Positions 42,747 to 64,000 of a stretch of DNA of 64,000 nucleotides are shown here, in pieces (positions within the stretch are counted from its first letter, which is position 1; every line of letters starts with the position of its first letter). The notes below the pieces were generated by a model. That model saw only the letters and a program-made list of their open reading frames with translations. It did not search any database and had not been told where the DNA came from. Source of the stretch: Candidatus Krumholzibacteriia bacterium (GTDB lineage: Bacteria; Krumholzibacteriota; Krumholzibacteriia; LZORAL124-64-63); assembly GCA_035447065.1 (NCBI GenBank), contig DAOTGJ010000006.1, positions 5,668 through 69,667 on the forward strand, written 5' to 3'. A program made the translations under genes and the position numbers.

Positions 42747-44023
42747 GGACCAGGCTGGCATGGCTGCTGGCGGCGTCGGCGGTGCTCGGAAGCCTGGTCG
42801 CTGGCTTCGTGGACCATCGTCCCCGTGCGCTGGTGGATTGGCGGAGCCTGCGTGCGGTGGCGCTGGAGAGCGATGACTGGGGCCTGCCGGGCTACGTGCC
42901 CGATGCCCACGCCTTGGACGGCGTGGACCGGGCCGCCCTGGGCGGGACCCACTTCCCGGACGTGTACTGGAACTCCACCCTCGAATCCGCGGCCGATCTG
43001 GATGCCATGGTGGCGCTCATGCGCCGTCATCATGCCCGCGACGGCCTGCCGGCCGTGTTCCAGCCCAACATGATCCTGAAGCCGCAACTCCCTGGCCTGG
43101 ACTCACCTTACCATAGGCCGGGGCTCGCGGAGGCCGAGCGCCGGGCCGTGGCTTCCGGCACCTGGCAGCCGGAGATCCACGGGGCCGATCACATCGATCC
43201 GGCGCGGCGGGACGAGGCCCTGACGGATCCTGATCCGGTTCTGGCCCAGGCGGCCTCCCGCGGCGTCCTGGTGTTCCCGCGCAGCCACACGGCCTTCGAG
43301 CTGGGCCCCCAGCGGCCCCTGGCCGACGTCCGCCGCAGCTGGGAACCCCTGCCGCGCCGTTTCGAGGATCGTTTCGGCCAGCCGGCCACGGCGGTCATCG
43401 CGCCGGACTACGTCTGGGACGGCCGCCACGAGGGGCTCTTCCGGGATCTGGGCCTGCGCATCGTCCAGGCCAAGGACCACCAGCGCCAGCTGGGCCTGGT
43501 CGGGCCGCAGCACTGGCGGGACGTGCGGCGGCTCGCCCTGCGCCTCTGGGACCGCTGGCGGGTGCGGGATCTGGTCTACCTGGATCGGAACGCCTTCTTC
43601 GAGACCGCCCACGCGGAAGACCCGCGGGCCCTGGTGCGCTCCTGCGCGGATCAGGTGCGAGGGGCCTGGCGGCGCGGGGAGCCGGCCATCGTGGAGACCC
43701 ATCGCGTGGGTTTCGTGCAGGTGGAGCCCGGCGCGGGGGCGGAGGGGCGCGCCCTGCTGGACAGCCTGCTGACGGATCTGGACGCCTCCGCGCCCCTGTA
43801 CGTGTCGGACGCCGAGCTGGCCGGTCTGGCGCGGCGCGGGATCTCCGCGGTGCGGCGGGGCCCCGTCTGGGTCCTCCGCAACCCGGGCCCGGCCCATCGC
43901 CTGGCCATTCTGCCGACGGATGGGCCTCGGGCCTCGCCGGCCCGGATCGGCGTGCCCGCCCGCACCACCCTGGTCCTGGATCGGACCTCGCTGGCCGTAC
44001 TGCAGCGGCTGCCCCTCCGTTGA
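42743..44023 (+). CDS. hypothetical membrane-anchored protein (polysaccharide-locus associated)
   Basis: It starts at GTG overlapping the upstream stop and has an N-terminal TM anchor 'LAWLLAASAVLGSLVAGF'. The 426-aa product has no recognised motif. Confidence 0.5.
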   Translation: MRTRLAWLLAASAVLGSLVAGFVDHRPRALVDWRSLRAVALESDDWGLPGYVPDAHALDGVDRAALGGTHFPDVYWNSTLESAADLDAMVALMRRHHARDGLPAVFQPNMILKPQLPGLDSPYHRPGLAEAERRAVASGTWQPEIHGADHIDPARRDEALTDPDPVLAQAASRGVLVFPRSHTAFELGPQRPLADVRRSWEPLPRRFEDRFGQPATAVIAPDYVWDGRHEGLFRDLGLRIVQAKDHQRQLGLVGPQHWRDVRRLALRLWDRWRVRDLVYLDRNAFFETAHAEDPRALVRSCADQVRGAWRRGEPAIVETHRVGFVQVEPGAGAEGRALLDSLLTDLDASAPLYVSDAELAGLARRGISAVRRGPVWVLRNPGPAHRLAILPTDGPRASPARIGVPARTTLVLDRTSLAVLQRLPLR

Positions 44024-44048
44024 CACTCTCCTCTGATTTGTAGTACCA
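44019..44048 (+). promoter_or_regulatory. sigma70-like promoter candidate TTGACA-N18-TACCAT for peptidase gene 1
   Basis: A perfect -35 overlaps the upstream stop codon. The leader downstream is homologous to that of peptidase gene 2. Confidence 0.35.
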
Positions 44049-44191
44049 TCATATGCGTTGAGGATAAGGGGGAGGACTCCCGCCTCACGCACTCAATCTG
44101 CGCGCACCTCGTGGTGACCTCGCCACCGGCCTCGGCCGGACACCTCAGAACGCAGAGGATTTCATTGCAGCGCACCGTCTCGCCCCGGTCC

Positions 44192-47100
44192 ATGCGACTC
44201 GTCCCCGTCGCCAAGAGCGGAGTCATCAAGTCCGGCATCGGCGCCTGGCTGATCGTGCTCCTCTGCGCGAGCGTCCTGCCGGCCGCGGCCGCCGACCATA
44301 CCGTCACCCTGGACCAGGCCCCGATCTGGAGCCGGGAGCTCGCCGGCACCGTGGTGCGCTGGCCCGGCCTGCCGCTCCTCGACGATCCCGACGCGCCGGC
44401 CCTGCCGTACCACGACGTGACCATCCTGCTGCCGCCGGGAGAGAGCCTGAGCGAGGTCCGGGTCCAGCCGGCGGAGGTGGCCGTGCGCCCCCTCGACGCG
44501 CCCATGGCTCCGGGGCGGCCTCCGCTCAGCGATCAGGGGGACACGGCGGCGGGCCGTACCGTTCCGGACGGAGGCGCGCCGCAGGCCTGGGGCGAGGTCC
44601 TGGGCACCAGCACCTGGCACGGCTATCAGCTGGGCCACGTGCGCATCCATCCCGTCCGTCTGCGCGAGACGGCGGACGGCCCCGTGGCCGAACACGCGCG
44701 CACGTTCCGGCTGACCACCTCCACCCGCCCCTCCACGCGGGCCAGCGTGTTGCGCCAGCGCGCCGTGCCCGGCGAGGAGCTCCGCCTGCGTTCCGTCCTG
44801 GGCCGTCACGTGCTGGGAGCCGAGCTCGCCGCCGCCTACCCGCAGGCCGCCGCCTCCGCCGCCGCCAAGACCCTGGAGGGCTACCGGCCCACCGACGCCC
44901 CGAGCCTGGACGGCTCGGACGTGCGCTTCGTGATCGTGACCACCGAAGCCCTGCGCCCGGCCTTCGAGCCGCTGGCCGAGTACCGCTGCGCCCAGGGCGT
45001 GCCCACGGTGGTGCGCACCCTGGAGTGGATCCTGGCCAACACCCTGCCCGAGGCCGACCCCCAGGCCACCCTGCGCTCGTTCCTGGCCGACGCCTACACG
45101 CGCTGGGGCGTGCGCTACGCCCTTCTGGGCGGCGACGTGGGCGTGATCCCCACGCGGATGATCTTCAACACCTACTACCCGTCCCAGAAGGGGTCGGACA
45201 TCCCGGTGGACCTGTACTACGGGGGGCTGGACGGCGACTGGAACGCCGACCGCGACGAGAACCTGGGCGAGCCCTACCTCAACGGCTTCGATCAGGGCGA
45301 CGACGCCGATCTGGTGCCGGAGATCCACGTGGGCCGCGCGCCGGTCACGAGCCTGGCCCAGGCCCAGACCTTCGTGGGCAAGATCCTGGCCTACGAGCGC
45401 GACCACGCCGGCGCGTACCAGGGCCGCGCCCTCTTCCTCAGCGAGGTCCTGTTCCCCAGCGACTACTCGCCGGGCGACGAGATCTACGACGACGGCGCCG
45501 CCTACAGCGAGGCCATCATCGCCGACGCCCTCGCCGGCCGCGACTTCGCCTACGACCGCCACTACGAGACCAGCCCCCTCTGGCCCGGCTCCGTGCCCGA
45601 GACGCGCAGCGGCGTCATCGGCGCCCTGAACAGCGGCCAGTACGGCATCGTGAACCACATCGGTCACGGCTACTTCTACAACATGTCCGTGGGGGCCGAG
45701 ACCCTGAACACGAAGGACGCGGAGGCCCTCCACAACGGCGACCAGCTCTTCGTGCTGAACAACCTGAACTGCGCCTCGGCGGCCATCGACTACAACTCCA
45801 TCATGGAGCGCTTCGTGACCAACGCCGACGGCGGCGCCGTGGCCGCCGTGGGCTCGAGCCGCGCCGCGTTCCCCTCCACCGCCTCGGGCTACCAGGCCAA
45901 CTTCTTCGACGGGATCTTCGTGCAGGGGCTGCGCACCCTGGGCGAGGCCGTGAACGCCATGCGCACGCCGTACGACGGCCAGACCTTCCAGAACACCGTG
46001 CAACGGTGGACCCACATGACGCTGGTGCTGGTGGGCGATCCCACGCTGCGCCTCTACGGCGCCGCGCCGACGGACCTGGCCGTGGCCGCGCCGGCCGCCC
46101 TCTCGCCGGGCCGGCAGGACGTGACCGTGGACGTGACCCGCGGCGGCGCGCCAGTGGCCGGCGCCGCCGTCTGCTTCTGGAAGGACGGCGACGACTACCG
46201 CACCGCGCTGACCGACGCCGCCGGCCGCGTCGTGGCCCCGGTGCACCTGCGCGGCGCCGGCACGCTGCGCATCACGGCCACCGCCGCCGACAGCCCGCCC
46301 CTGGAGATCGTCGTGCCCGTGGACGCGGGCCTGACGGCGTATCCCGCGCTGGCGGGCCTGACGGTGGTGGACGACGGCAGCCTGGGCACCCTGGGCAACG
46401 GCGACGGCGTGCCGGGCGCGGGCGAGACCGTGGCCCTGCTCACCGACTGGACCAACGCCGGCGGCGCCGACGCGGCCGCCGCGGGCACGCTCGCCCTGAG
46501 CTGCGACGATCCCCTCGTGAACGTCCTGACCGCCGGCGTGGATCTGCCGGCGCTGGCCGCGGGCGCCACCGGCGCGGCCGCGGCGCCCGTCCTGCTCCAG
46601 CTCGCCGCCACCATCCCCGACCGTTCCGAGTTCAGGCTCGACTTCACGGCGGCGTGGCAGAGCGGTCCCGTGGCGCAGCCCAGCATGCTCGAGGTCGTGG
46701 CTCCGCGCATGGAGCCGGGCCAGATGGCTTTCAACGACTACCCGCACGGCGACGGCGACGGCCTCATGGAGCCGGGCGAGCTGGTGCGACTCAAGCTCAG
46801 CCTCCTGAACACCGGCTGGGGCCTGGCCACCGGGCTGGTGGGCTGGATCGATCCGTCGGACCCCAACATCACCGTGGTCCAGGGCATCGGCACGTGGCCC
46901 CAGGCCGGGCGCAACCAGGAGGTGGAGCAGGAGCAGGAGTTCCTCCTCTCCATGGCCGCGGTGAACGGCACCGTGGAAGCCGTGCTGCACCTGGCGGATT
47001 CGCTGGGCCAGACCTGGGAGCACCGCTTCTCGCTGAACCGGCCGGCCACCCCGGTGATCTCCGAGGTGGAGTCCAGCAGCGTGGGGGAGATCCTGCTGGT

Positions 47101-48982
47101 GTGGGATCCCAACGCCGAGGCCGACCTGCTGGGCTACCACGTGCAGCGCGCGGCGTCGTCCAGCGGCCCGTACGAGCGGCTGACCCTGCGCCCCATCACC
47201 GGCGGCGCCTTCTTCCGCGACATCGGGCTGGATCCCCTGACGCGCTACTTCTACAAGGTCGCGGCCGTGGACTCGTCGCGGTTCGTGTCGGCCTACTCGC
47301 TCCCCATCTCCGTGAGCACGCCGCCCGCGGAGCAGACCGGCTTCCCCATCACCATGCCGGTGGAGACCTCCAGCCACATCGCCGTGGGCGACGTGAACGG
47401 CGACGGCGCCCTGGAGGTGGTCACCGCGGCGGAGGCCATCTACGTGTGGACGGCCGACGGCAACGAGCTGCTGGACGGCGACAACGATCCCACCACCCTG
47501 GGCCCCTTCGTGGACAACGGGGAGACCTGGACGCCCGCGGGCATCGTGCTGGCGGACATCACCGACGATCCCGGCCTGGAGATCGTGGCCTCGTGCCGCT
47601 CCACCAACGCCATCTACGTGTTCGAGTCCGACGGCGCGGTGGCGCCGGGCTGGCCGCGCACCATGAACAACTGGAACTGGGCCACGCCCTGCGCCGGGGA
47701 CATCGACGGCGACGGCCTGGCGGAGGTGGTGGTGAACACCATCCGCAACCGCACCTACGCCTGGAACCACGACGGCACGGAGGTGCTCGACGGCGACGGC
47801 GACCCCGCCACCGACGGCGTGTTCCACGAGCGCGTGAACGAGTGGTACTCCTTCGCCACGCCGTCGCTGGCGGACCTGGACGGCGACGGCGCGGCGGAGG
47901 TCATCTTCGGCACGCGCAGCAGCGACACGGCCCCGGACGAGCTGCTGGCCCTGCGCGCCGACGGCACCCAGCCCGCCGGCTGGCCGGTGCTGCTGGGGAT
48001 CTACGGCGAGGCCATGGATTCGCCGGCGGTGGGCGACTGGGACCGCGACGGCGACGTGGAGATCGTGCTCATCACGGAGGACGACAAGCTCCACGTCCTG
48101 GACCGCACCGGCGCCCACGAGCCCGGGTTCCCCATCGCGTTCATCGCCGACAACAACGGCGTGGGCCAGAGCTGCCCCTCGCCGGCCCTGGGCGACATGG
48201 ACGGCGACGGTCTGCTGGAGATCGTGGCCGTGGCCGTGGACGACGCCACCCATGCCATGATCCACGTCATCGGCCGCGACGGCCTGGACCTGCCCGGCTG
48301 GCCCAAGGCCGTGGGCGGCAGCTCGGAGAGCTCGCCCATCCTGGGCGACGTGACCGGCGACGGCCTGCCCGACGTGATCTACGGCATCGGCGGCGCCAGC
48401 GACTCCCAGGAGAACCTCCTCTACGCCTTCCGCAACGACGGCGCCACGATCCCGGGCTTCCCGCTCTCGCTGTCGGGACCCGTGCGCGCCACGCCCACCC
48501 TGACGGACCTGAACGGCGACGGCGACGTGGACCTGGTCTACGCCGGCTGGGACCTCGCGGTGCACGTCTGGGATTTCCCGGCCCCGTGGAACGAGGCCGC
48601 CGCGGCCTGGCCCACCTTCCACGGCGACGTGCAGCGCCGCGGCGTGACGGCGGACCTGACGATCTCCGCGGTGGCGGAGCCGTCGCCGCTGCTGCCGCAG
48701 GCGCTCGTGCTCGAGCCCTGCGCGCCCAACCCCTTCAATCCGGCCACGACGATCCGCTTCGCGCTGCCGGCCGACGTGCGCGGCCGCACGCGCCTGCGCG
48801 TGTTCGATCTCCAGGGCCGCCTGGTGCGCACGCTGGTGGACGGAGTGCTGCCCGCGGGCTTCCACGAGGTGGCGTGGCGGGGCCGCGACGACCGGGACCG
48901 CGCCGTGGGCAGCGGCGTGTACCTCTATCGCCTCGAGGCCGGCGGCGTGGCCGCCCAGGGGCGCATGACCCTGGTCAAGTAG
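44192..48982 (+). CDS. secreted multidomain C25 (gingipain-like) cysteine peptidase with FN3/Ig domains, FG-GAP repeats and T9SS-type C-terminal sorting domain (paralog 1)
   Basis: The signal peptide is 'MRLVPVAKSGVIKSGIGAWLIVLLCASVLPAAAA'. It has 'VRFVIVTTEALRPAFEPLAEYR', the dyad 'HIGHGYF' plus 'NNLNCASAAID', repeated 'GDVNGDGALEVV', 'DIDGDGLAEVV' and 'DLNGDGDVDLVYAG', and a C-terminus 'NPFNPATTIRFALP...SGVYLYRLEAG...RMTLVK'. Confidence 0.85.
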   Translation: MRLVPVAKSGVIKSGIGAWLIVLLCASVLPAAAADHTVTLDQAPIWSRELAGTVVRWPGLPLLDDPDAPALPYHDVTILLPPGESLSEVRVQPAEVAVRPLDAPMAPGRPPLSDQGDTAAGRTVPDGGAPQAWGEVLGTSTWHGYQLGHVRIHPVRLRETADGPVAEHARTFRLTTSTRPSTRASVLRQRAVPGEELRLRSVLGRHVLGAELAAAYPQAAASAAAKTLEGYRPTDAPSLDGSDVRFVIVTTEALRPAFEPLAEYRCAQGVPTVVRTLEWILANTLPEADPQATLRSFLADAYTRWGVRYALLGGDVGVIPTRMIFNTYYPSQKGSDIPVDLYYGGLDGDWNADRDENLGEPYLNGFDQGDDADLVPEIHVGRAPVTSLAQAQTFVGKILAYERDHAGAYQGRALFLSEVLFPSDYSPGDEIYDDGAAYSEAIIADALAGRDFAYDRHYETSPLWPGSVPETRSGVIGALNSGQYGIVNHIGHGYFYNMSVGAETLNTKDAEALHNGDQLFVLNNLNCASAAIDYNSIMERFVTNADGGAVAAVGSSRAAFPSTASGYQANFFDGIFVQGLRTLGEAVNAMRTPYDGQTFQNTVQRWTHMTLVLVGDPTLRLYGAAPTDLAVAAPAALSPGRQDVTVDVTRGGAPVAGAAVCFWKDGDDYRTALTDAAGRVVAPVHLRGAGTLRITATAADSPPLEIVVPVDAGLTAYPALAGLTVVDDGSLGTLGNGDGVPGAGETVALLTDWTNAGGADAAAAGTLALSCDDPLVNVLTAGVDLPALAAGATGAAAAPVLLQLAATIPDRSEFRLDFTAAWQSGPVAQPSMLEVVAPRMEPGQMAFNDYPHGDGDGLMEPGELVRLKLSLLNTGWGLATGLVGWIDPSDPNITVVQGIGTWPQAGRNQEVEQEQEFLLSMAAVNGTVEAVLHLADSLGQTWEHRFSLNRPATPVISEVESSSVGEILLVWDPNAEADLLGYHVQRAASSSGPYERLTLRPITGGAFFRDIGLDPLTRYFYKVAAVDSSRFVSAYSLPISVSTPPAEQTGFPITMPVETSSHIAVGDVNGDGALEVVTAAEAIYVWTADGNELLDGDNDPTTLGPFVDNGETWTPAGIVLADITDDPGLEIVASCRSTNAIYVFESDGAVAPGWPRTMNNWNWATPCAGDIDGDGLAEVVVNTIRNRTYAWNHDGTEVLDGDGDPATDGVFHERVNEWYSFATPSLADLDGDGAAEVIFGTRSSDTAPDELLALRADGTQPAGWPVLLGIYGEAMDSPAVGDWDRDGDVEIVLITEDDKLHVLDRTGAHEPGFPIAFIADNNGVGQSCPSPALGDMDGDGLLEIVAVAVDDATHAMIHVIGRDGLDLPGWPKAVGGSSESSPILGDVTGDGLPDVIYGIGGASDSQENLLYAFRNDGATIPGFPLSLSGPVRATPTLTDLNGDGDVDLVYAGWDLAVHVWDFPAPWNEAAAAWPTFHGDVQRRGVTADLTISAVAEPSPLLPQALVLEPCAPNPFNPATTIRFALPADVRGRTRLRVFDLQGRLVRTLVDGVLPAGFHEVAWRGRDDRDRAVGSGVYLYRLEAGGVAAQGRMTLVK

Positions 48983-48998
48983 GGGAGTTCCACCCCCC

Positions 48999-49027
48999 TT
49001 GCAACGGGCCGGCGGTTCTGGTATCAT
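48999..49027 (+). promoter_or_regulatory. sigma70-like promoter TTGCAA-N17-TATCAT for peptidase gene 2
   Basis: It has good -35 and -10 elements with 17-bp spacing, 16 nt after the gene 1 stop. A leader of about 240 nt follows. Confidence 0.4.
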
Positions 49028-49271
49028 GCTGATTCGCCCTGGAGGGAGGGCGGCCCGCCTCAGAGTCTCACCGCGTTTTCACTTGCCGGAAGGAGCGGCC
49101 GGGAAGCAGGTTAAAGCGTCTGACGGGACCGCGAAGCGGCCCCTGATTCCAGCTAGCGTACCCGGTTCGACGCCCTTGGTTCGCACGCGAACCGATCCGA
49201 GTCCGAAACGACCACGATAGACACCATTCCGCCAGGCCCGGCCGTCCGGGCCGATGACACGGGAGTGACCT

Positions 49272-52200
49272 ATGGTCCGCGATCGTCTCCGTTCGAAGCC
49301 TCGGGCGCGGCTGGCCGCGCTCGCCTGCATTGCGATCACCCTCCTCCTCGCCGCCGGCGTCGCCGCCGCGGCCGAGCGCGTCCTGCACCACGGCGTACTG
49401 GACGCCGACAAGCTCGTCTGGGAGTCCACCGCGGCCGGCAGCGTGCCGCGCTTCGGCGATGCTCCCATCTACCTGCAGGACGGGGTGCCCCAGGTGCCCA
49501 GCCTGTCGGTGACCGTGCTTGTGCCCGCCGACGCCGCCCTGGGCGACGTGACGGTGGTGCCCCTGCGCACCCGCCTCGTGGACGCGCCGTCGGCCCTGGC
49601 CTACGGCCGGCCGCTGATCAGCAGCGAGGGGGTGGCCGCCACCCAGGATCTCGTGTCCGCGTCCCGCGACCGCTTCCCCGACGCCTGGGGCCTGGACGGC
49701 GGCGATTCCTACCGCCGCGGCTACCGCCTCCAGAGCGTCACCGTGTTCCCCGTGCGCGCCGTCCGCGGCGCCGACGGGGTCTGGTCCGGCGTCGAGGTGC
49801 TGGAGGAGTTCGAGATCCGCACCGCCGGCACCGAGCCCGCGCCGCGGCCGGAGGACCGGGCGGTGCGCCGCCTGCTGGTGCCCGGCGAGCGCGAGCGCCT
49901 GGAGAGGGAGCTGGCGTCCGCGGTAGTCAACCCCGGCGCCCTCGGCGGCTACGCCCGCGAGGACGGCGTCCCCGCCGCGGATCTGCCCGGCGACAAGACC
50001 ATGAACCTGGGCGATTCCCCCTACGCCTACCTGATCATCACCTCCGAGGCCCTGGCGCCGGCGTTCGAGCCCCTGGCCGCGCACCGCACCGCCGGCGGCC
50101 TGCGCGCCACCGTCAAGACGCTGGAGTGGATCGAGGCCAACTACCGCCACGGCGCGGATCTCCAGGAGACCGTCCGCGGCTTCATCCGCGAGGCCTACGA
50201 GCGCTGGGGCGTGGAGTACGTGCTGCTGGGCGGCGACACCGACGTCATCCCGGCCCGCTACGCCCTGAGCAACTTCTACCCGCCCACGCAGACCACGGAC
50301 ATCCCCGCGGACATCTACTACGCGTGCCTGGACGGCAACTGGAACGCGGACGGCGACCCGTACTTCGGCGAGGCCGGCAGCTCCACGATCCCCGCCGACG
50401 ACGCCGACATGGCCGCGGAGGTCTTCCTGGGCCGCGCGCCGGTCAGCACGCCGGCGGAGGCCCAGAACTTCGTGACCAAGGTGGTGGACTACGAGCTCGG
50501 CACGGGCGGCGTCCACTACCCCAACAAGCTGCTGCTCGCCGCGGAGGTGCTCTTCCGCTCCGAGGCCGGCGACATCACGCTGGACGGGGCGTCCTTCGCC
50601 GAGGAGATCTACCTGGAGCTCGTGCAGCCCAACACCACCATGGACGTGGTGCGCATGTACGAGTCGTACAACGAGACCGACGAGTTCGGCGCGCCCCTGT
50701 ACCCCGGCTCCGTGCGCGAGACGCGGGCCGCGGTCATCGACACGCTGGACACCGGCACCTTCGGGATCTTCGTGCAGATCGGCCACGGCTTCTTCTTCAA
50801 CATGTCCATGGCCGATGCCGACATGACCGTGGGCGACGCCGACGGCCTGGTCAACGCGGACCGTCCGTTCCTGCTCTACGGGCTGAACTGCGCCAGCTGC
50901 GCCTTCGACTACAGCTGCCTCATGGAGCGGTTCGTGCAGAACCCCACCGGCGGCGCCATCGCGTCCATCGGCGCCTCCCGCGCGGCGTTCCCGTACACGT
51001 CCAACGACTTCCAGTACGAGTTCTTCCGCCTCTACTACGAGGAGGACGTGACGCGCCTGGGCGATCTCATCGACCGCAGCAAGCTGCCCTGGCTGTCGCT
51101 GGCGTACTCCAACAGCTTCACGCGCTGGACCTTCCTCAACTACACCCTGCTGGGCGACCCCGGCATGGCCCTGTGGCGCAACCGGCCCGCGGCCGTGACC
51201 CTGGGCACCCCGGGCAGCGTGGGCGGCGGCGACCAGACCGTGAACGTGACCGTCAGCAGCGCCGGCTCGCCGGTGCAGGACGCCATCGTGACCGTGCAGG
51301 GCGGGGGCACCTACGCCACCGCGGCCACCAACGCCTCCGGCCTCGCGGCCGTGCCGGTCACCGTGAACGCCGCGGGCCCGCTGAGCGTGGACGTGCACGG
51401 GCAGGACCTGGTCTGGACCAGCCGCGACGTTCCGGTGGTCTTCGGCGGCGCCTTCGTGGGGCTCGAGGACATGACGGTGCTGGACGACGGCACCCTGGGC
51501 ACCGTCGGCAACGGCAACGGCCGCGCCGAGGCGGGGGAGACCGTGGGCTTCTGGCCCACCTTCGCCGGCGTGGGCAGCAGCGGCAGCGGCGCCGCCACCG
51601 CCACGCTCGTCACCGCCGAGACCGGCGTGACCGTGGTGGACGGCAGCGTGGGCGTGCCGGCCCTGGCCGTGGGCGCCCAGGCCCAGAGCGACGCGCCCTT
51701 CCTGGTGGCCCTGGCCGCCGACGTGGCCGACGGCCGCCGCCTGGACTTCGACCTGGCGGTGAACGACGGCGCCAAGGCCCTCTACGCCAACGCCTGGTCC
51801 ACGCTGGCCACGGCGCCCGAGGTCGAGGCCGTGGCCCTGGACTGGTACGACACCTTCTTCGGCGACGGCGACGGCGTCGTGGACGACGGCGAGCGCATCT
51901 CCGTGCGCATGACCCTGAAGAACTACGGCGGCGGCGCGGCCGACGTGGTCACGGGACGCCTGCGCACCAACTCGGCCAACGTGAACGTCATCGACTCGGT
52001 GGCCACCTACGGCCCCCTGGACCTGCTGGACTCCTCGCAGGGGAGCGGCCTGTTCAGCTTCTCGCTGACCAGCGCCGTGGCGGCCTACGACGTGCGCGTG
52101 GAGTTCACCGACAACCGCGGCCGCACGTTCAGCCATCCGTTCGCCCTGAGCGATCCCACCACCCCCCTCAACCTGGTGGCCACCGGCTCGCTGGGCCCGG

Positions 52201-54113
52201 ACATCATCGGCCTCTCCTGGACGCCGGTGACGGATCCCAAGCTGCGCGGCTACCACGTCTACCGCAGCCAGAACGAGGGCGGTCCCTTCACGCGGGTCTC
52301 CGACGACCTGATCGAGGACATCTCGTACTTCCGCGACAAGGGCCTGGGCCTCCTCACGCGCTACTACTACCAGGTGTCCAGCGTGGACTCCAACCTGGTG
52401 GAGAGCCCCGTGTCGGCGGCCATCGCCCAGAGCACGGCGCCGCCGGAGATCACCAACTTCCCGCTGCCGTTCAACGGCGAGTCCAGCGGCCACTTCGCCG
52501 TGGGCGACGTGACCGGCGACGGTCATCTGGACATCGTCTTCGGCGCCAGCGAGATCTACGTCTGGCAGCGCGACGGCTCCGAGCTCTTCGACGGCGACGG
52601 GGACTCCCAGACCCTGGGCCCCATCACCGACGTGGACGGCACCTTCGGCCCCATGGGCATCGCCCTGGCGGAGCTCAACGGCCTGCCGGGCCTGGAGATC
52701 ATCTGCCAGGACCGCGACGCCAGGCTCCTGCACGTCTACGACGCCAAGACGGGTCAGGACCTTCCCGGCTGGCCTCAGCCCACGGGCCTGAACTGGGCCT
52801 GGGCCACGCCCGCCGTGGGGGATCTGGACAACGACGGCGATCTCGAGATCGTCATGAACAACCAGGCCGGCCAGACGCTGGTCTGGCACCACGACGGCAC
52901 GGAGCTGCTCGACGGCGACGCCAACCCCGCCACCAACGGCGTGTTCTTCGTCCGGCCCGAGGGCCGCTGGGCCTACGACCTGAGCTCGCCGGCCCTGTTC
53001 GACCTGGACGGCGACGGCAACCTGGAGATCATCTTCGGCACCAAGTACGCCTGGAACGCCGAGAACAAGCTCCACGCCCTGCGCATCGACGGCACCGAGG
53101 CCGCCGGCTTCCCCTACGTGACCGGCCTGGGCGCCAGCATCACCAGCAGCCCCACCATCGCGGACCTGAACGGCGACGGCGTGTGGGAGATCATCTTCCT
53201 GCACGAGCTGGAGAAGCTGCTGGTCGTGGAGCAGGACGGGACGGACTACCCCGGCTTCCCGATGACGCTGACGTCGAACAACGGCAACACGGCCTGCCCG
53301 AGCCCCGCCGTGGGCGACTTCGACGGCGACGGCCAGCTGGAGATCGCCTGCATCTCCACCGTGAGCGTGGTCAGCGCCTTCGTCACGGTGGTGGACACGG
53401 ATCCGGCCGGCGGCAGCGGCACCGTGCTGCCCGGCTGGCCCCAGGAGATCCCCGGCAACTCCGAGTCCAGCCCCGTGGTGGGCGACATCAACGGCGACGG
53501 GTTCCCCGACATCGTCCACGGCATCGGCGGCGGGGACGAGGAGACCCTCAACGAGATCTTCGCCTTCGACCATCAGGGCAACCCGGTGGAAGGCTTCCCC
53601 ATCACCCTGGGCGGTCCCATCCGCCCGGCGCTGGTCATCACGGACCTGGACGACGACCACGACGTGGACATCGTCTACGGCGGCTGGGACGGCGCCATGC
53701 ACGTGTGGGACATGCCCTTCCCGGCGGACGGCACCCAGATCCCCTGGGGCACCTTCCGCGGCCATTACCACCGCGACGGCGTGTACCGCAACTACAGCCC
53801 CACGGGCGTGGAGGAGGCCCCGGCCCCGGTGGACCTGACCCTGGGTTCCATCCGGCCCAACCCCTTCAACCCGAGCACCACGGTGCGCCTCTACGTGCCC
53901 GCCATGGGCCGCGAGGGGCTGGAGGTGGACGTCTTCGACGTGCAGGGCCGCCGCGTGCGCCGCCTGCACGAGGGCGCCCTGGAGGCGGGCTGGCACGACT
54001 TCGTCTGGAACGGCCGCGACGACGCCGGCAAGGCCCAGGCCAGCGGCCTGTACCTGCTGCGCGCCAAGGGCGGCGACACCTCGGTCAGCGCCAAGATGGC
54101 CCTGATCCGTTGA
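49272..54113 (+). CDS. secreted multidomain C25 (gingipain-like) cysteine peptidase with FN3/Ig domains, FG-GAP repeats and T9SS-type C-terminal sorting domain (paralog 2)
   Basis: The signal peptide is 'MVRDRLRSKPRARLAALACIAITLLLAAGVAAAA'. It has 'YAYLIITSEALAPAFEPLAAHR', 'QIGHGFFFNM' plus 'YGLNCASCAFD', 'GDVTGDGHLDIVFG' and 'DLNGDGVWEIIF', and a C-terminus 'NPFNPSTTVRLYVP...SGLYLLRAKGG...KMALIR'. Confidence 0.85.
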   Translation: MVRDRLRSKPRARLAALACIAITLLLAAGVAAAAERVLHHGVLDADKLVWESTAAGSVPRFGDAPIYLQDGVPQVPSLSVTVLVPADAALGDVTVVPLRTRLVDAPSALAYGRPLISSEGVAATQDLVSASRDRFPDAWGLDGGDSYRRGYRLQSVTVFPVRAVRGADGVWSGVEVLEEFEIRTAGTEPAPRPEDRAVRRLLVPGERERLERELASAVVNPGALGGYAREDGVPAADLPGDKTMNLGDSPYAYLIITSEALAPAFEPLAAHRTAGGLRATVKTLEWIEANYRHGADLQETVRGFIREAYERWGVEYVLLGGDTDVIPARYALSNFYPPTQTTDIPADIYYACLDGNWNADGDPYFGEAGSSTIPADDADMAAEVFLGRAPVSTPAEAQNFVTKVVDYELGTGGVHYPNKLLLAAEVLFRSEAGDITLDGASFAEEIYLELVQPNTTMDVVRMYESYNETDEFGAPLYPGSVRETRAAVIDTLDTGTFGIFVQIGHGFFFNMSMADADMTVGDADGLVNADRPFLLYGLNCASCAFDYSCLMERFVQNPTGGAIASIGASRAAFPYTSNDFQYEFFRLYYEEDVTRLGDLIDRSKLPWLSLAYSNSFTRWTFLNYTLLGDPGMALWRNRPAAVTLGTPGSVGGGDQTVNVTVSSAGSPVQDAIVTVQGGGTYATAATNASGLAAVPVTVNAAGPLSVDVHGQDLVWTSRDVPVVFGGAFVGLEDMTVLDDGTLGTVGNGNGRAEAGETVGFWPTFAGVGSSGSGAATATLVTAETGVTVVDGSVGVPALAVGAQAQSDAPFLVALAADVADGRRLDFDLAVNDGAKALYANAWSTLATAPEVEAVALDWYDTFFGDGDGVVDDGERISVRMTLKNYGGGAADVVTGRLRTNSANVNVIDSVATYGPLDLLDSSQGSGLFSFSLTSAVAAYDVRVEFTDNRGRTFSHPFALSDPTTPLNLVATGSLGPDIIGLSWTPVTDPKLRGYHVYRSQNEGGPFTRVSDDLIEDISYFRDKGLGLLTRYYYQVSSVDSNLVESPVSAAIAQSTAPPEITNFPLPFNGESSGHFAVGDVTGDGHLDIVFGASEIYVWQRDGSELFDGDGDSQTLGPITDVDGTFGPMGIALAELNGLPGLEIICQDRDARLLHVYDAKTGQDLPGWPQPTGLNWAWATPAVGDLDNDGDLEIVMNNQAGQTLVWHHDGTELLDGDANPATNGVFFVRPEGRWAYDLSSPALFDLDGDGNLEIIFGTKYAWNAENKLHALRIDGTEAAGFPYVTGLGASITSSPTIADLNGDGVWEIIFLHELEKLLVVEQDGTDYPGFPMTLTSNNGNTACPSPAVGDFDGDGQLEIACISTVSVVSAFVTVVDTDPAGGSGTVLPGWPQEIPGNSESSPVVGDINGDGFPDIVHGIGGGDEETLNEIFAFDHQGNPVEGFPITLGGPIRPALVITDLDDDHDVDIVYGGWDGAMHVWDMPFPADGTQIPWGTFRGHYHRDGVYRNYSPTGVEEAPAPVDLTLGSIRPNPFNPSTTVRLYVPAMGREGLEVDVFDVQGRRVRRLHEGALEAGWHDFVWNGRDDAGKAQASGLYLLRAKGGDTSVSAKMALIR

Positions 54114-61183: not shown

Positions 61184-62242
61184 ATGGGCGTGATGGCCGG
61201 ACTGGTGGGCAGGTTCCTGGGCGGCGGCGAGCCGGCCGCCTTCCGCCTGCCCGGCACCCTGGGCGACGCCGCCGAGATCCTGGCCGTGGACACGGGCGAC
61301 CTGGCGGACCTGCTCTTCTACGCGCCCCTGCTGCGGGCCATCCGCCAGCGCCATCCGCGGGCGCGCATCGACATGCTGCTGCCCGAGCGGCACGTCAGCG
61401 TGGTGCAGCCTTCGGGCCTGGTGCGGGACTGCCTGGTCTACAACGCCAAGCAGCTGCGCACCTGGACGCCCGGCTACCTGAACCTGGCCCGCGGCGTGGG
61501 CAAGCGCACCTACGACCTCTCGGTGGTCATGTCCTTCGAGGCGGCGCCGGCCCTGGAGGGCGTGGCCCTGGCCACGGGCGCGCCGCTGCGCCTGGGCCCG
61601 TCCCATGCCAAGGCGTACCCAGGCGTGAACTTCGAGCTGCGCGCGCGCGAGGACGACCGGCGCTACCGCGGCGCCCGCCTGGGCGCCATGGCGCCCTTCC
61701 TGGGGCTGCCGCCCTTCGAGGACCTGCGGGCCTGGCCCCTGCCCGACGAGCACCGCCGCCGCACGGCCCAGCGCGTGCGTCTGAACAAGCCCCGCCGCGA
61801 CGAGCTCCTGGTGGGCGTGGACCCTTCCCTGGGGCACGGCGGCAACGGGCTGGCCCTGCAGGCCCTGCAGTTCCTCTGGCGCCAGCTCGCCAGCCAGATG
61901 GCCTGCCGCGCCCTGCCCCTGACCCTGCACGAGGATGGGGAGCGTCTGAAGCGCTTCGAGGAGGGTCTGGACCAGACGCCCCTGGACCTGCCCCGCGACA
62001 CCCTCTTCGACACCCTGCTGCTGGCCGCCGAGTGCGACCTGCTGGTGGCCGGCAACACGGACCTCTTCCACTTCGCCGTGAGCCTGGGCGTGCCTTGCCT
62101 GGGCCTCTTCACCGCCGAGGACGCTCCCTGCTGGGAGCCCCGCGATCTGCCTCACGTCCGCGTGCTGCGCGTGACCGAGGGCCGGCGCATGGAGGTGGAC
62201 GTGCTCATGGCGGCCGTGACGGCGGTGCGGAGCGGCCGATGA
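61184..62242 (+). CDS. glycosyltransferase family 9 (LPS heptosyltransferase)
   Basis: The N-terminus 'ILAVDTGDLADLLFYAPLLRAIRQRHPRARIDML' resembles GT9 proteins, and there is 'LLVAGNTDLFHFAVSLGVPCLGLF'. Confidence 0.75.
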   Translation: MGVMAGLVGRFLGGGEPAAFRLPGTLGDAAEILAVDTGDLADLLFYAPLLRAIRQRHPRARIDMLLPERHVSVVQPSGLVRDCLVYNAKQLRTWTPGYLNLARGVGKRTYDLSVVMSFEAAPALEGVALATGAPLRLGPSHAKAYPGVNFELRAREDDRRYRGARLGAMAPFLGLPPFEDLRAWPLPDEHRRRTAQRVRLNKPRRDELLVGVDPSLGHGGNGLALQALQFLWRQLASQMACRALPLTLHEDGERLKRFEEGLDQTPLDLPRDTLFDTLLLAAECDLLVAGNTDLFHFAVSLGVPCLGLFTAEDAPCWEPRDLPHVRVLRVTEGRRMEVDVLMAAVTAVRSGR

Positions 62243-63276
62243 CGCGACCCCGCGTGCTCATCCTCGCGCCCAACTGGCTGGGTGATCTGGTCATGGCCAC
62301 CACGCTGCTGGGCCGCTGCGATGAGGCCGGCGTGAGCCCCGTGGTCCTGGTGCGCCGACGCTGGGCGTCGCTGCTTCGGGACGACCCCCGCGTGGGCGGC
62401 CTGCTCCACTACGAACGCACGGGCCTGCACGCGGGCTGGCGCGGGCTGCCGCGGCAGGCGGCCCGTCTGCGCGAGGCGGGGCCGGTGGAGGCGGTCTTCG
62501 TGCTGCCGCCTTCCCTGCGCGCGGCGGCCGCGGCGCGGCTGGCGGGGCAGGGCCCGCGCCTGGGCTTCGGCGGCGAGGGCCGCGCACCGCTGCTGGACGT
62601 CTGCCTCACGCGCCCGCCGCGGGGCAGCCTGCACTACTGCGAGGAGACGGACCTGCTCTGGCGCGCGTATCGGCCCGCCGCCGCCGGGCCGGCCCCGGAG
62701 CCGGCGCTCCCCGGCCTGCGCACGGCCGCCCCGGCCGCCGCCGCGGCGCACGGACGCGTCTGGATCCTGGCCGTGGGCGCCACCTACGGGTCGGCCAAGG
62801 CCTGGCCGGCGCCCATCGCCGCCGGCTTCGCCGCCGCCGCCGCGGATCTGGGCGTGCGCCTGCTGCTGCTGGGCGACGCCGCCGCCGCCGGCCACGTGCA
62901 GGCCATGGCCGCGGCCCGTCACCTGCCTTGGCGAGGGGCGGAGGAGCCCGGCGATGGGGTGGTGGACCTGACCGGACGCACGGACCTGAGCGAGGCGGCG
63001 GGCCTGCTGCGTTCGGCCTCGGTCTTCGTGGGGAACGACAGCGGCCTCATGCACCTGGCCGCCGCCCTGGGCGCGCCCACCCTGGGCCTGTTCGGCTCCA
63101 GCAACCCGGCCTGGACGGCGCCGCGCGGTCCGCGCGCCCGCGCCCTGGCGGTGGAAGGCTTCGCCTGCCATCCCTGCCATCGCCGCACCTGCGACCAGCC
63201 GCGCTTCTGCATGGAGACCCTGACCGCCGACGCCGTGCTCGTCGCGGCCCTGGAGCTGGAGGAGGCGCGCCCGTGA
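62239..63276 (+). CDS. glycosyltransferase family 9 (WaaF/RfaF-like heptosyltransferase)
   Basis: It has 'RVLILAPNWLGDLVMATTLL' and 'VFVGNDSGLMHLAAALGAPTLGLFG'. Its start overlaps the upstream stop. Confidence 0.8.
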   Translation: MTRPRVLILAPNWLGDLVMATTLLGRCDEAGVSPVVLVRRRWASLLRDDPRVGGLLHYERTGLHAGWRGLPRQAARLREAGPVEAVFVLPPSLRAAAAARLAGQGPRLGFGGEGRAPLLDVCLTRPPRGSLHYCEETDLLWRAYRPAAAGPAPEPALPGLRTAAPAAAAAHGRVWILAVGATYGSAKAWPAPIAAGFAAAAADLGVRLLLLGDAAAAGHVQAMAAARHLPWRGAEEPGDGVVDLTGRTDLSEAAGLLRSASVFVGNDSGLMHLAAALGAPTLGLFGSSNPAWTAPRGPRARALAVEGFACHPCHRRTCDQPRFCMETLTADAVLVAALELEEARP

Positions 63277-63860
63277 AGCCCGTGATCTGGTCCCGGCCCG
63301 GCCCCGATACGCCCGCCCACGGCCCCCTGCTGCTGGTGGACCGCGACGGCGTGATCATCGAGGACGGGGACTACCTGGACGACCCGGCCCGCGTCCGCCC
63401 CCTGCCGGGGGCTCTCGCGGCCCTGGCGCGCCTGAAGGCCGCCGGGTGGCGCCTGGTGGGGGTCTCCAACCAGTCGGGACTCGGGCGGGGACGCATCGCG
63501 CCGACGGCCTTCGCCGCCGTGCAGAGGCAGGTGGACGCGGAGCTGGCCGCCGCCGGCGCGTCCCTGGACGCCATGCTCTACTGTCCCCACGCGCCGGACG
63601 CCGACTGCGCCTGCCGCAAGCCGGCCCTCGGCATGGTGGAGGCGGCCCACGACCTGCTGGAGTGGTCGCCGGACCGGGCCGCCATGGTGGGGGACAAGCG
63701 CTCCGACGCGGAGCTGGGGCTGGCGGCGGGCGTGCGCACCTTCCTGGTGCGGACCGGACAGGGGAGCCGGATGGATGCGGCGGACCTTCCGCCCGGCGTG
63801 GAGGTGGCCGCCGACCTGGCCGCCGTGGCGGCGCTCCTGCTCGCGGAGACGCGGCCGTGA
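63273..63860 (+). CDS. gmhB: D-glycero-D-manno-heptose 1,7-bisphosphate phosphatase (HAD IIIA)
   Basis: It has the HAD motif I 'LLLVDRDGVI', then 'GVSNQSG' and 'CPHAPDADCACRKP' (a Zn-binding Cys cluster). It starts at GTG overlapping the upstream stop. Confidence 0.8.
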   Translation: MKPVIWSRPGPDTPAHGPLLLVDRDGVIIEDGDYLDDPARVRPLPGALAALARLKAAGWRLVGVSNQSGLGRGRIAPTAFAAVQRQVDAELAAAGASLDAMLYCPHAPDADCACRKPALGMVEAAHDLLEWSPDRAAMVGDKRSDAELGLAAGVRTFLVRTGQGSRMDAADLPPGVEVAADLAAVAALLLAETRP

Positions 63861-64000
63861 CGAGGACGGAGGCGACGCTCGGGCCGCGACCGGACCAGGT
63901 CCGACGTCTGCTCGTCATCCGCCGCCGCGGCCTGGGCGACGCCCTGGTCTCGCTGCCCGCGGTGGCCGCCCTGGCGGACCTCTATCCGCGGGCGGAGGTG
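63857..64000 (+). CDS. glycosyltransferase family 9, 3'-truncated at window edge
   Basis: It starts at GTG overlapping the gmhB stop. 'RRLLVIRRRGLGDALVSLPAVAAL' is a typical GT9 N-terminus. Confidence 0.6.
   Translation, partial: MTRTEATLGPRPDQVRRLLVIRRRGLGDALVSLPAVAALADLYPRAEV

What the first reader, a model, noticed from the sequence alone, without database searches (positions are those of the whole stretch)
44192..54113. Tandem pair of giant paralogous gingipain-like (C25) peptidases with FG-GAP repeats and T9SS-type sorting domains
Two adjacent same-strand genes of about 1596 and 1613 aa occupy roughly 15% of the window. They are clear paralogs, e.g. 'VRFVIVTTEALRPAFEPLAEYR' vs 'YAYLIITSEALAPAFEPLAAHR', 'HIGHGYFYNMSVG' vs 'QIGHGFFFNMSMA', and 'NNLNCASAAIDYNSIMERFV' vs 'YGLNCASCAFDYSCLMERFV'. 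Each has a signal peptide, a pro-region, a C25 caspase-fold domain with a His/Cys dyad, FN3/Ig modules, at least seven FG-GAP-like 'GDxxGDGxxE(I/V)V' repeats, and a ~90-aa C-terminal 'NPFNP(A/S)TT(I/V)R..P...SG(V/L)YL.R...KM.L(I/V)(K/R)' domain. That C-terminus resembles the T9SS type-A sorting/FlgD-Ig domain. This mirrors the Porphyromonas gingipain cargo logic in what looks like a distant, high-GC lineage. The divergence is substantial, but retention of both copies, each with its own promoter, suggests subfunctionalisation.
Basis: partly seen in the sequence, partly recalled or inferred. Interest (0 to 1): 0.8.

Follow-up and report, generated by a model that had tools for sequence, protein, structure and literature searches.

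The report
Tandem giant gingipain-like secreted peptidases
Two adjacent 1,600-residue genes in an uncultured Krumholzibacteria genome encode gingipain-type cysteine proteases fused to an eight-bladed propeller and a type IX-style export tag; the family is uncharacterised but widespread in three candidate phyla, and it is an expected kind of protein rather than a new one.

Summary
Gene A (44192-48982) and gene B (49272-54113) are same-strand paralogs, 40% identical over about 1,590 residues. Both have the same domain order:
- signal peptide
- gingipain-type prodomain
- C25 catalytic domain, with a His/Cys dyad invariant in 220 homologs
- IgSF domain
- two beta-sandwiches
- FN3 domain
- eight FG-GAP repeats
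- a C-terminal FlgD-Ig/T9SS type-A-like domain

The source is a Candidatus Krumholzibacteria MAG (GCA_035399505.1). NCBI already names gene A "C25 family cysteine peptidase". At least 529 related loci occur in species-representative genomes; those listed are mainly Krumholzibacteriota, Latescibacterota and Eisenbacteria, often as tandem arrays of two or three. The A/B duplication is old and syntenic.

Not shown:
- T9SS machinery in this genome
- passing TIGR04183 scores for the two window proteins themselves
- subfunctionalisation

This is a new architectural variant of a known kind, of moderate interest.

The parts
44020..44049 (+). Sigma-70-like promoter candidate upstream of gene A (TTGACA-18-TACCAT)
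   Evidence: 10 of 12 matches; 2 sites found in the region against 0.3 expected. The -10 is recognisable upstream of the L004 ortholog. Consensus match only.
44192..48982 (+). Gene A: 1596-aa C25 peptidase precursor (A-clade paralog)
   Evidence: Identical protein P0121 is named 'C25 family cysteine peptidase [Candidatus Krumholzibacteria bacterium]'.
44192..44293 (+). Gene A signal peptide (aa 1-34, ...LPAAAA|DHT)
   Evidence: Read from the sequence; no predictor was run.
44294..44911 (+). Gene A gingipain-type prodomain (aa ~35-240)
   Evidence: Family N-terminal profile A8 hits only the Kgp prodomain 5mun (2.7e-9) and the RgpB prodomain 4ief_A (1.5e-3).
44927..46054 (+). Gene A C25 catalytic domain (aa 246-621); His492 codon 45665-45667, Cys527 codon 45770-45772
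   Evidence: Pfam PF01364, 206 bits; dyad aligned to RgpB and PorU; invariant in 220 sequences; coordinates.
46064..47320 (+). Gene A IgSF domain, two beta-sandwich (CARDB-like) modules and an FN3 domain (aa ~625-1043)
   Evidence: Big_1 weak hit; by homology to the gene B model; FN3 hits to PDB FN3 domains.
47339..48667 (+). Gene A eight-repeat FG-GAP beta-propeller (aa ~1050-1492)
   Evidence: FG-GAP_3 94.4 bits and FG-GAP 49.7 bits; eight repeats at aa 1066, 1121, 1169, 1227, 1281, 1334, 1385, 1438.
48704..48979 (+). Gene A C-terminal FlgD-Ig / T9SS type-A-like domain (aa ~1505-1596, PNPFNP...GRMTLVK)
   Evidence: FlgD_ig 30.9 bits (cut-off 27); weak alignment to the PorU CTD; CTD profile results. 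No TIGR04183 hit at E <= 0.01.
48999..49027 (+). Sigma-70-like promoter candidate in the 289-nt A-B spacer (TTGCAA-17-TATCAT, extended -10 TG)
   Evidence: conserved -10 in the L004 ortholog spacer. No terminator-like site found between the genes.
49272..54113 (+). Gene B: 1613-aa C25 peptidase precursor (B-clade paralog)
49272..49373 (+). Gene B signal peptide (aa 1-34, ...GVAAAA|ERV)
   Evidence: Read from the sequence. In the AF2 model residues 10-29 form a helix and 1-8 and 29-32 have pLDDT below 50.
49374..50012 (+). Gene B gingipain-type prodomain (aa ~35-247)
   Evidence: Kgp and RgpB prodomains are the only PDB hits; beta-sandwich plus helices in the model.
50028..51170 (+). Gene B C25 catalytic domain (aa 253-633); His505 codon 50784-50786, Cys540 codon 50889-50891
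51189..52436 (+). Gene B IgSF domain (aa ~640-722), two beta-sandwich modules (aa ~727-958) and FN3 (aa ~962-1055)
   Evidence: AF2 secondary structure. The profile alignment to RgpB runs through its IgSF domain to residue 433 of 435. Peptidase_C25_C found in 10 of 30 relatives and CARDB in 2 of 30.
52449..53801 (+). Gene B eight-repeat FG-GAP beta-propeller (aa ~1060-1510)
   Evidence: Foldseek top matches are integrin alpha-V, V. cholerae Bap1 and BBSome propellers.
53838..54110 (+). Gene B C-terminal FlgD-Ig / T9SS type-A-like domain (aa ~1523-1613, PNPFNP...AKMALIR)
   Evidence: FlgD_ig 38.9 bits; TIGR04183 20.5 bits, below the cut-off of 23; seven predicted strands; profile hits to FlgD, PorU, PorZ and RgpB CTDs.

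Best explanation
Both genes encode secreted zymogens of gingipain-type (MEROPS C25) cysteine endopeptidases.

Proposed pathway:
1. Each precursor crosses the inner membrane through Sec, using its signal peptide (inferred from the sequence).
2. It is kept latent by an N-terminal gingipain-type prodomain (homology shown; latency inferred from RgpB and Kgp).
3. It is carried across the outer membrane through its C-terminal seven-strand Ig-like domain, which belongs to the FlgD-Ig/T9SS type-A CTD superfamily (homology shown; export route inferred).
4. The mature enzyme presents a His/Cys caspase-fold active site on a stalk of IgSF, two beta-sandwiches and FN3, ending in an eight-bladed FG-GAP propeller.

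The propeller most plausibly takes the ligand- or substrate-binding role that haemagglutinin/adhesin domains play in RgpA and Kgp (inferred).

The likely physiological role is extracellular or surface proteolysis. An OppA-like peptide-binding protein is encoded immediately downstream.

The A/B pair is an old, stably syntenic duplication within Krumholzibacteriia. It is not a recent copy.
For: Catalytic core and prodomain:
- C25 domain E 1e-60 and 2e-57.
- Family profile against the PDB: RgpB 3e-23, Kgp 2e-15, PorU 8e-16. The RgpB alignment runs through the catalytic and IgSF domains.
- The N-terminal profile hits only the Kgp (2.7e-9) and RgpB (1.5e-3) prodomains.
- AF2 model of B 1-1060 has pLDDT 88.5 and pTM 0.89.
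- G-H-G and Cys are invariant in all 220 homologs.

C-terminal domain:
- The CTD has seven predicted strands.
- Its profile matches FlgD-Ig (4e-9), the PorU CTD over nearly its full length including the PNPF motif (2.5e-4), the PorZ CTD (0.022) and the RgpB CTD (0.021).
- TIGR04183 hits 26 of 30 relatives at E <= 0.01, best 6e-10.
- The same CTD sits at the C-termini of unrelated neighbouring proteins in related genomes: two FN3 proteins and a PQQ propeller protein.
- PorU orthologs that pass the NCBIfam cut-off carry this FlgD_ig-type CTD and lie next to porV.

Genomic setting:
- Outer membrane/LPS context: Wzy_C and Glyco_transf_9 genes lie nearby.
- An SBP_bac_5 (Opp4A-like) gene is directly downstream. 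That adjacency holds in about 26 related loci.
Against: - T9SS core genes (porU, porV, sprA, porK-N) were not found among the window ORFs scanned. They could not be searched for in the rest of this genome.
- The PorU/PorV loci that were found could not be assigned to Krumholzibacteriota.
- TIGR04183 is below its curated cut-off for B (20.5 against 23) and is not reported for A.
- The family behaves like a conserved core gene. Lengths are mostly about 1,500-1,700 aa, synteny is conserved across about 30 Krumholzibacteriia species representatives, and at least 529 loci exist. Nutritional proteases usually vary in number and architecture between genomes, so this is unusual.
- The downstream SBP lies inside a long syntenic block that also holds unrelated housekeeping genes (Lon, Hsp20, PfkB). 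The adjacency is therefore weak evidence of functional coupling.
- Substrate specificity is unknown. The RgpB S1 residue Asp163 falls in an insertion relative to the family profile.
- There are no experimental data.
Confidence: 0.66

Rival explanations
1. The proteins are not cargo but the lineage's PorU-like C-terminal signal peptidase/sortase. The C25 domain would cleave CTDs and attach cargo to a glycolipid, and the propeller would act like PorZ.
For: - The best NCBIfam hit for the C25 region is T9SS_sortase PorU (83-95 bits).
- By single-sequence phmmer the best PDB hit is PorU.
- The genes are conserved in length and synteny, like a housekeeping gene, next to Wzy_C, GT4, WecA-like and methyltransferase genes.
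- PorU also keeps a CTD (literature).
- PorZ appears among the Foldseek hits for the propeller-plus-CTD model, at rank 30.
Against: - The PorU model score is far below its cut-off (83-95 against 420) and covers only the catalytic part of the model.
- The N-terminus is a gingipain prodomain.
- PorU orthologs that pass the cut-off (471-476 bits), with porV next door, exist as a separate family in related high-GC uncultured bacteria.
- No porV lies beside the giant genes in any of the 88 family loci held (L001-L088).
- Arrays of two or three copies are common.
- The glycan-gene synteny is absent from the loci outside the Krumholzibacteriia A/B clade, including the Latescibacteria and Eisenbacteria loci.
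Confidence: 0.07
2. The proteins are mainly surface adhesins or matrix or envelope scaffold proteins. The conserved propeller and stalk would be the functional part. The C25 domain would serve only for self-maturation or shedding.
For: - The propeller is as conserved as the catalytic domain. Sites conserved in both clades number 78 of 450 in the propeller against 79 of 395 in the catalytic domain.
- Top structural matches for the propeller include integrin alpha heads and the V. cholerae biofilm matrix protein Bap1.
- Length and architecture are tightly conserved across phyla.
Against: - The catalytic dyad and its flanking motifs are invariant in 220 sequences.
- A full gingipain zymogen module (prodomain, catalytic domain and IgSF) is retained.
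- Adhesion and proteolysis are not exclusive, since the gingipains RgpA and Kgp do both.
Confidence: 0.15
3. The C-terminal domain is a plain FlgD-type Ig domain with a structural or anchoring role. It would not be a T9SS sorting signal, and export would use another route.
For: - FlgD_ig is the only CTD model that passes its cut-off for both window proteins.
- The strongest PDB sequence hits of the CTD profile are FlgD proteins (4e-9).
- One recent review states that CTD proteins are restricted to Bacteroidota.
Against: - The domain always sits at the extreme C-terminus.
- It has the PNPF-type N-terminal motif and a K/R-x-x-L-(V/I)-(K/R) end that FlgD alignments do not cover. The PorU CTD alignment does cover the PNPF motif (positions 12-85 of the 96-position profile).
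- The same tag occurs on unrelated secreted proteins, and on PorU proteins that pass the NCBIfam cut-off and lie beside porV.
- TIGR04183 hits 26 of 30 relatives.
- No flagellar genes lie nearby.
Confidence: 0.1

Closest known systems
Gingipains RgpB and Kgp of Porphyromonas gingivalis (MEROPS family C25; PDB 1cvr, 4ief, 4rbm, 5mun)
   Different: Sequence identity is only about 21%. Between the IgSF domain and the CTD these proteins carry two beta-sandwiches, an FN3 domain and an eight-repeat FG-GAP propeller instead of haemagglutinin/adhesin domains. The CTD is of the FlgD_ig sequence type. The hosts are uncultured high-GC environmental bacteria. Specificity is unknown, because the S1 Asp of RgpB is not alignable.
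PorU, the T9SS C-terminal signal peptidase/sortase (NCBIfam NF033707; PDB 6za2)
   Same: It has a C25-family catalytic domain with an aligned His/Cys dyad, and a CTD of the same fold.
NCBIfam NF052323 'T9SS-dependent M6-like inactivated metalloprotease'
   Same: It shares the FG-GAP propeller plus CTD module, at 83-88 bits over model positions about 786-1028. Gene A is 27.6% identical over about 600 aa to the M6-like protein encoded next to porU-porV in L091.
   Different: Its N-terminal enzyme module is M6-like, not C25. The scores are far below the family cut-off of 600.
FG-GAP/VCBS propellers of integrin alpha subunits and V. cholerae Bap1
   Same: The repeat motif and propeller fold match.
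   Different: There is no detectable orthology. Here the propeller is a module of a protease precursor.
FlgD hook-capping protein Ig-like domain (PF13860)
   Same: The core of the C-terminal domain matches FlgD Ig domains (E 4e-9).
   Different: No match to FlgD outside its Ig-like domain, and no flagellar context. Extra N- and C-terminal motifs are shared with T9SS CTDs.

Membership tests
Peptidase family C25 (gingipain type) | Match to PF01364 above its curated cut-off | tested here: met
   206 and 195.4 bits against a cut-off of 23, with full model coverage.
Peptidase family C25 (gingipain type) | Catalytic His and Cys aligned with those of RgpB and conserved | tested here: met
   A His492/Cys527 and B His505/Cys540 align to the GHG and AC(V) motifs of RgpB and to PorU. 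They are invariant in 220 homologs.
Peptidase family C25 (gingipain type) | Caspase-like catalytic fold followed by an IgSF domain | tested here: met
Peptidase family C25 (gingipain type) | N-terminal gingipain prodomain (PF08126) | tested here: met
   The family profile hits only 5mun (2.7e-9) and 4ief_A (1.5e-3). PF08126 itself is found in 3 of 30 relatives.
Peptidase family C25 (gingipain type) | Endopeptidase activity and Arg/Lys specificity | not testable with these tools
   The S1 Asp163 of RgpB falls in an insertion in the profile alignment. Biochemistry is needed.
T9SS type-A CTD cargo | Match to TIGR04183 or PF18962 above the curated cut-off | tested here: inconclusive
   B scores 20.5 bits against a cut-off of 23, and A has no hit at E <= 0.01. 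Relatives match TIGR04183 in 26 of 30 cases (best 6e-10) and PF18962 in 8 of 30.
T9SS type-A CTD cargo | Seven-strand Ig-like beta-sandwich at the extreme C-terminus, with a conserved Gly in the beta3-beta4 region and a basic residue in the last strand (features from the papers read) | tested here: met
   Seven strands are predicted at B 1523-1611. Invariant D39 and G42 and the K/R-M-x-L-(V/I)-(K/R) terminus appear in the CTD alignment. The profile aligns to the PorU, PorZ and RgpB CTDs. Assigning these residues to particular strands or loops is an inference.
T9SS type-A CTD cargo | T9SS machinery (PorV, SprA/Sov, PorK-N, PorU) encoded in the same genome | not tested
   None was found among the window ORFs scanned. 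PorU-PorV pairs with the same CTD type exist in related uncultured bacteria of undetermined phylum. A metagenome scan did not recover the source organism's copy.
T9SS type-A CTD cargo | CTD-dependent secretion and CTD cleavage | not testable with these tools
   This needs an experiment.
PorU sortase (NF033707) | Score at or above 420 bits with full-length model coverage | tested here: not met
   82.8 and 94.7 bits, covering model positions about 364-740 only. P0240 and P0242 score 476 and 472 bits with full coverage.
PorU sortase (NF033707) | porV adjacent. This is not a curated criterion. It was seen here in the two loci whose PorU passes the cut-off. | tested here: not met
   tblastn with PorV finds it only in L089-L091, in none of the 88 giant-C25 family loci (L001-L088) and not in the window.
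FG-GAP / VCBS beta-propeller | Repeat models above their cut-offs, with about seven or eight repeats forming a propeller | tested here: met
   FG-GAP_3 at 94 bits and FG-GAP at 50-58 bits. Eight repeats, 48-60 residues apart. Model pLDDT 89, with integrin and Bap1 matches.
FlgD hook-capping protein | Full-length FlgD match above the family cut-off, and flagellar gene context | tested here: not met
   Only the Ig-like part matches. FlgD equivalog models score 17-29 bits against cut-offs of 230 or more. No flagellar genes are nearby.

The most novel reading that the evidence does not exclude
The giant C25-propeller proteins would be a core cell-envelope enzyme of Krumholzibacteriota, Latescibacterota and Eisenbacteria rather than feeding proteases. 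For example, they could be a second, gingipain-derived processing or attachment peptidase acting on the many FlgD-Ig-tagged surface proteins of these phyla. In that reading the tandem paralogs would work as a hetero-oligomer, and the conserved upstream 426-aa protein of unknown function would be a partner.
Probability: 0.1. Interest if true: 0.7.

Novelty: new variant of a known kind. Interest (0 to 1): 0.35.

Why it matters
Gingipains are known almost entirely from Porphyromonas, and one recent review still describes CTD cargo as restricted to Bacteroidota. This locus shows a complete gingipain zymogen module (prodomain, catalytic domain, IgSF). That module is fused to a different binding module and to a FlgD-Ig-type CTD. 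The fusion is conserved at nearly constant length in at least 529 loci of species-representative genomes, spanning at least three candidate phyla.

The family gives a well-defined and abundant candidate cargo for studying type IX-like secretion and extracellular proteolysis in uncultured FCB lineages. It also offers a natural comparison for how gingipain latency and specificity evolved.

It does not overturn anything. The domain content is what automated annotation already reports.

Tried and rejected
- **Functional link to the upstream glycan genes** (Wzy_C, GT4, WecA-like, methyltransferase). The block is syntenic across about 30 Krumholzibacteriia loci, but it also includes unrelated genes such as Lon and Hsp20, and it is absent from the Latescibacteria and Eisenbacteria loci. 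It was treated as lineage synteny, not evidence.
- **Subfunctionalisation.** Only 6 clade-specific fixed differences were found. One lies three residues before the catalytic His: H in clade A and the outgroup, Q in clade B. This is suggestive at most.
- **Recent gene conversion between A and B.** A 64-nt stretch is 92% identical, but sliding-window analysis shows no extended tract.
- **T9SS genes of the source organism.** None was found among the window ORFs scanned. A metagenome scan with PorU returned 13 loci, none from the organism's samples. A cluster look-up gave no organism names.
- **Literature.** No paper in the held library describes this family or a T9SS in Krumholzibacteriota.
- **RNA families.** Rfam found nothing in the window.
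- **The 426-aa upstream protein.** It has no Pfam, NCBIfam or PDB match.
Full report
**Observation**

The window is 72% GC, so long ORFs appear in many frames. Only the + strand frames at 44192-48982 and 49272-54113 show coding-type composition, with GC3 of 0.96 and 0.98, and only they have homologs. The antisense ORFs of 1621 and 2271 aa are composition artefacts.

BLASTP of A (1596 aa) against B (1613 aa) gives 40% identity over 1588 columns, collinear from the prodomain to the last residue, E = 0.0.

**Source and what is already annotated**

The exact B protein is encoded on DAOPJE010000001.1 of assembly GCA_035399505.1 and on two JGI metagenome contigs. The A protein is identical to an NCBI entry named [quoted passage not shown]. 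Family-level annotation therefore already exists. No paper in the searchable library describes this family.

**Domain anatomy**

Pfam gives Peptidase_C25 (E 1e-60 and 2e-57), FG-GAP_3, FG-GAP and FlgD_ig for both proteins, all above curated cut-offs.

- **Prodomain.** A profile of the N-terminal 250 residues hits exactly two things in the whole PDB: the Kgp prodomain (5mun, 2.7e-9) and the RgpB prodomain (4ief_A, 1.5e-3).
- **Catalytic plus IgSF.** A full-length family profile hits RgpB at 3e-23, with the alignment running through the catalytic and IgSF domains to RgpB residue 433 of 435. It hits Kgp at 2e-15 and PorU at 8e-16.
- **Dyad.** The catalytic residues (A His492/Cys527; B His505/Cys540) align with the RgpB and PorU dyads. 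The G-H-G and Cys columns are invariant in all 220 aligned homologs.
- **Stalk.** Downstream of the IgSF domain the model shows two further beta-sandwiches and an FN3 domain. Each sandwich begins with a GNGDG...GE motif, and CARDB is hit in 2 of 30 relatives. FN3 hits appear.
- **Propeller and CTD.** The C-terminal 574 residues model well (pLDDT 89.2) as a propeller plus a small beta-sandwich. Each protein has eight FG-GAP-type repeats, 48-60 residues apart. The nearest solved propellers are integrin alpha heads, V. cholerae Bap1 and BBSome subunits.

**The C-terminal domain**

The last 90 or so residues form seven predicted strands. The consensus is PNPFNPxT...D..GR.VRTL...G.H...W.GRDD.GR...SGVY..RL...KM.LVK.

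The CTD profile matches FlgD Ig-like domains best (4e-9), but only over the core. It also matches:
- the PorU CTD over nearly its whole length, including the PNPF motif (2.5e-4)
- the PorZ CTD (0.022)
- the RgpB CTD (0.021)

TIGR04183 scores 20.5 bits for B, just under its cut-off of 23, and is not reported for A. It does match 26 of 30 diverse relatives at E <= 0.01, best 6e-10, and PF18962 matches 8 of 30.

An HMM of this CTD finds the same tag at the extreme C-terminus of unrelated proteins encoded near family members in other genomes. These are two FN3 proteins, a PQQ-type propeller protein and a shorter C25 protein. That is the behaviour of a modular sorting signal.

Published descriptions of type-A CTDs list a seven-strand Ig-like sandwich, a conserved Gly at the start of strand 4 and a basic residue in the last strand. 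These fit what is seen here. I conclude that the domain belongs to the FlgD-Ig/T9SS type-A CTD superfamily and is very likely a sorting domain. The window proteins themselves do not pass the curated T9SS model.

**Cargo or sortase?**

The best NCBIfam hit for the catalytic region is PorU, and the genes are conserved like housekeeping genes. I therefore tested the idea that they are PorU equivalents.
- The PorU scores are 83-95 bits against a cut-off of 420.
- The structural match to PorU is far weaker than to gingipains.
- The N-terminus is a gingipain prodomain.
- Following a shorter C25 gene seen in an Eisenbacteria locus led to a separate family. In that family P0240 and P0242 pass the PorU model (476 and 472 bits, full coverage).
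- P0240 and P0242 carry FlgD_ig-type CTDs and sit in a conserved dnaE-accA-trm112-porU-porV arrangement. PorV_fam scores 181 bits against a cut-off of 90.

So type IX attachment components with this CTD type exist in related uncultured high-GC bacteria, and the giant proteins are not them. I could not assign those two loci to a phylum. I also could not recover the source organism's own porU.

**Family, duplication and context**

Database searches return more than 200 homologs, most of them full-length proteins of about 1,500-1,700 aa with the same domain set. A scan of one genome per species finds at least 529 related loci. The 80 loci listed are labelled mainly Krumholzibacteriota, Latescibacterota and Eisenbacteria. 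A few carry doubtful labels such as Fibrobacteraceae, Gemmatimonadales and Udaeobacter.

A neighbour-joining tree puts A in a clade of 37 sequences and B in a sister clade of 80, with 103 sequences outside. Every A-clade gene whose context I examined lies directly upstream of a B-type gene in the same block: PhoH-GlnA-x-Wzy_C-GT4-WecA-like-methyltransferase-unknown(426 aa)-A-B-SBP_bac_5-...-Lon.

Many Krumholzibacteriia genomes have only the B-type gene at that position. Independent tandem arrays of two or three copies occur in Latescibacteria and Eisenbacteria.

The duplication is therefore old and stably retained. Only six sites are fixed differently between the clades. One lies three residues before the catalytic His. 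There is no extended gene-conversion tract. Subfunctionalisation is possible but not shown.

A sigma-70-like -35/-10 pair precedes each gene (2 found against 0.3 expected). No terminator-like site lies between the genes. The -10 is recognisable upstream of the two orthologous genes in L004. This gives modest support to separate promoters.

**Mechanism proposed**

What is shown:
- homology and predicted fold of a complete gingipain zymogen module with an intact dyad
- an eight-repeat propeller
- a CTD of the T9SS/FlgD-Ig type
- conservation across candidate phyla

What is inferred:
- Sec export
- prodomain latency
- CTD-dependent outer-membrane translocation
- surface or extracellular proteolysis, with the propeller acting as a binding module
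- possible coupling to peptide uptake through the OppA-like protein encoded downstream. This last inference is weak, because the whole neighbourhood is syntenic.

**Novelty and score**

This is a gingipain-like C25 peptidase with a type IX-style tag. Its lineage, Krumholzibacteriota, is discussed with the FCB superphylum in the one paper on the phylum retrieved here, and one review assigns the T9SS to that superphylum.

What is new is the architecture. A propeller replaces the adhesin domains and the CTD is of the FlgD-Ig type. The near-constant size, the breadth across three candidate phyla and the recurrent tandem arrays are also new.

A specialist would find it useful rather than surprising. 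I rate it a new variant of a known kind, with interest 0.35.

Noticed in passing
L089:10001-15389 and L091:10001-18553: PorU orthologs that pass the NCBIfam cut-off (472 and 476 bits against 420) carry FlgD_ig-type CTDs. They lie in a conserved dnaE-accA-trm112-porU-porV cluster in uncultured 69-71% GC bacteria. In L091 the next gene is a 1045-aa M6-like protein with FG-GAP repeats and a CTD. Its propeller-plus-CTD region is 27.6% identical to that of window gene A. The phylum was not determined.
   Followed up: partly
window:42743-44023 (+): A 426-aa ORF with a hydrophobic N-terminus and no Pfam, NCBIfam or PDB match lies immediately upstream of the C25 gene or genes. tblastn finds a homolog upstream of the C25 gene(s) in about 30 related Krumholzibacteriia loci (33-44% identity); direct adjacency was confirmed in the five loci with gene calls. 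It is a possible partner, or simply part of the syntenic block.
   Followed up: partly
L051:17971-20559 (-), also the genomes of L048, L072 and L073: Eisenbacteria encode a second family of C25 proteins of about 1,400 aa (P0222, P0229) with a prodomain, a C25 domain and an FlgD_ig CTD. The gene lies within a few kb of the giant C25 gene in L051, and on the same contig as a giant C25 gene in three other genomes. They score 166-222 bits on the PorU model, below its cut-off.
   Followed up: partly
L027:4359-6038 (-), L035:4778-5977 (-), L073:2583-4037 (-): Unrelated proteins (two FN3 proteins and a PQQ/BamB-like propeller protein) end in the same FlgD-Ig/T9SS-like C-terminal domain. This points to a general sorting tag in these phyla.
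   Followed up: partly
window:44050-44100 and 49028-49075: The 5' leaders of A and B share a GGGAGG...CCCGCCTCA-like stretch just after the putative -10. The leaders are long, about 140 and 245 nt. No Rfam family matches.
   Followed up: no
window:47761-47824 and 52883-52946: A 64-nt stretch is 92% identical between A and B, against 59% gene-wide. It encodes WxHDGTE(V/L)LDGD..P(A)T(D/N)GVF between propeller repeats 3 and 4. The stretch is strongly constrained. Sliding windows show no extended conversion tract.
   Followed up: partly
window:38509-42746 and about 62200-64000: Envelope glycan genes flank the locus. Upstream are Wzy_C-type ligase/polymerase, GT4, WecA/MraY-like Glycos_transf_4 and methyltransferase genes. 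About 8 kb downstream of gene B are two Glyco_transf_9 (heptosyltransferase-like) genes. This fits an LPS-bearing outer membrane.
   Followed up: partly
window:54132-55871 (+): An SBP_bac_5 (Opp4A/NikA-like) solute-binding protein gene lies directly after gene B, with no adjacent permease or ATPase genes. tblastn finds a homolog downstream of the C25 gene(s) in about 26 related loci.
   Followed up: partly
window:13900-25500 (+): A NADH:quinone oxidoreductase (complex I) operon has a fused NuoC-NuoD (30 kDa plus 49 kDa) subunit. It is ordinary housekeeping context.
   Followed up: no
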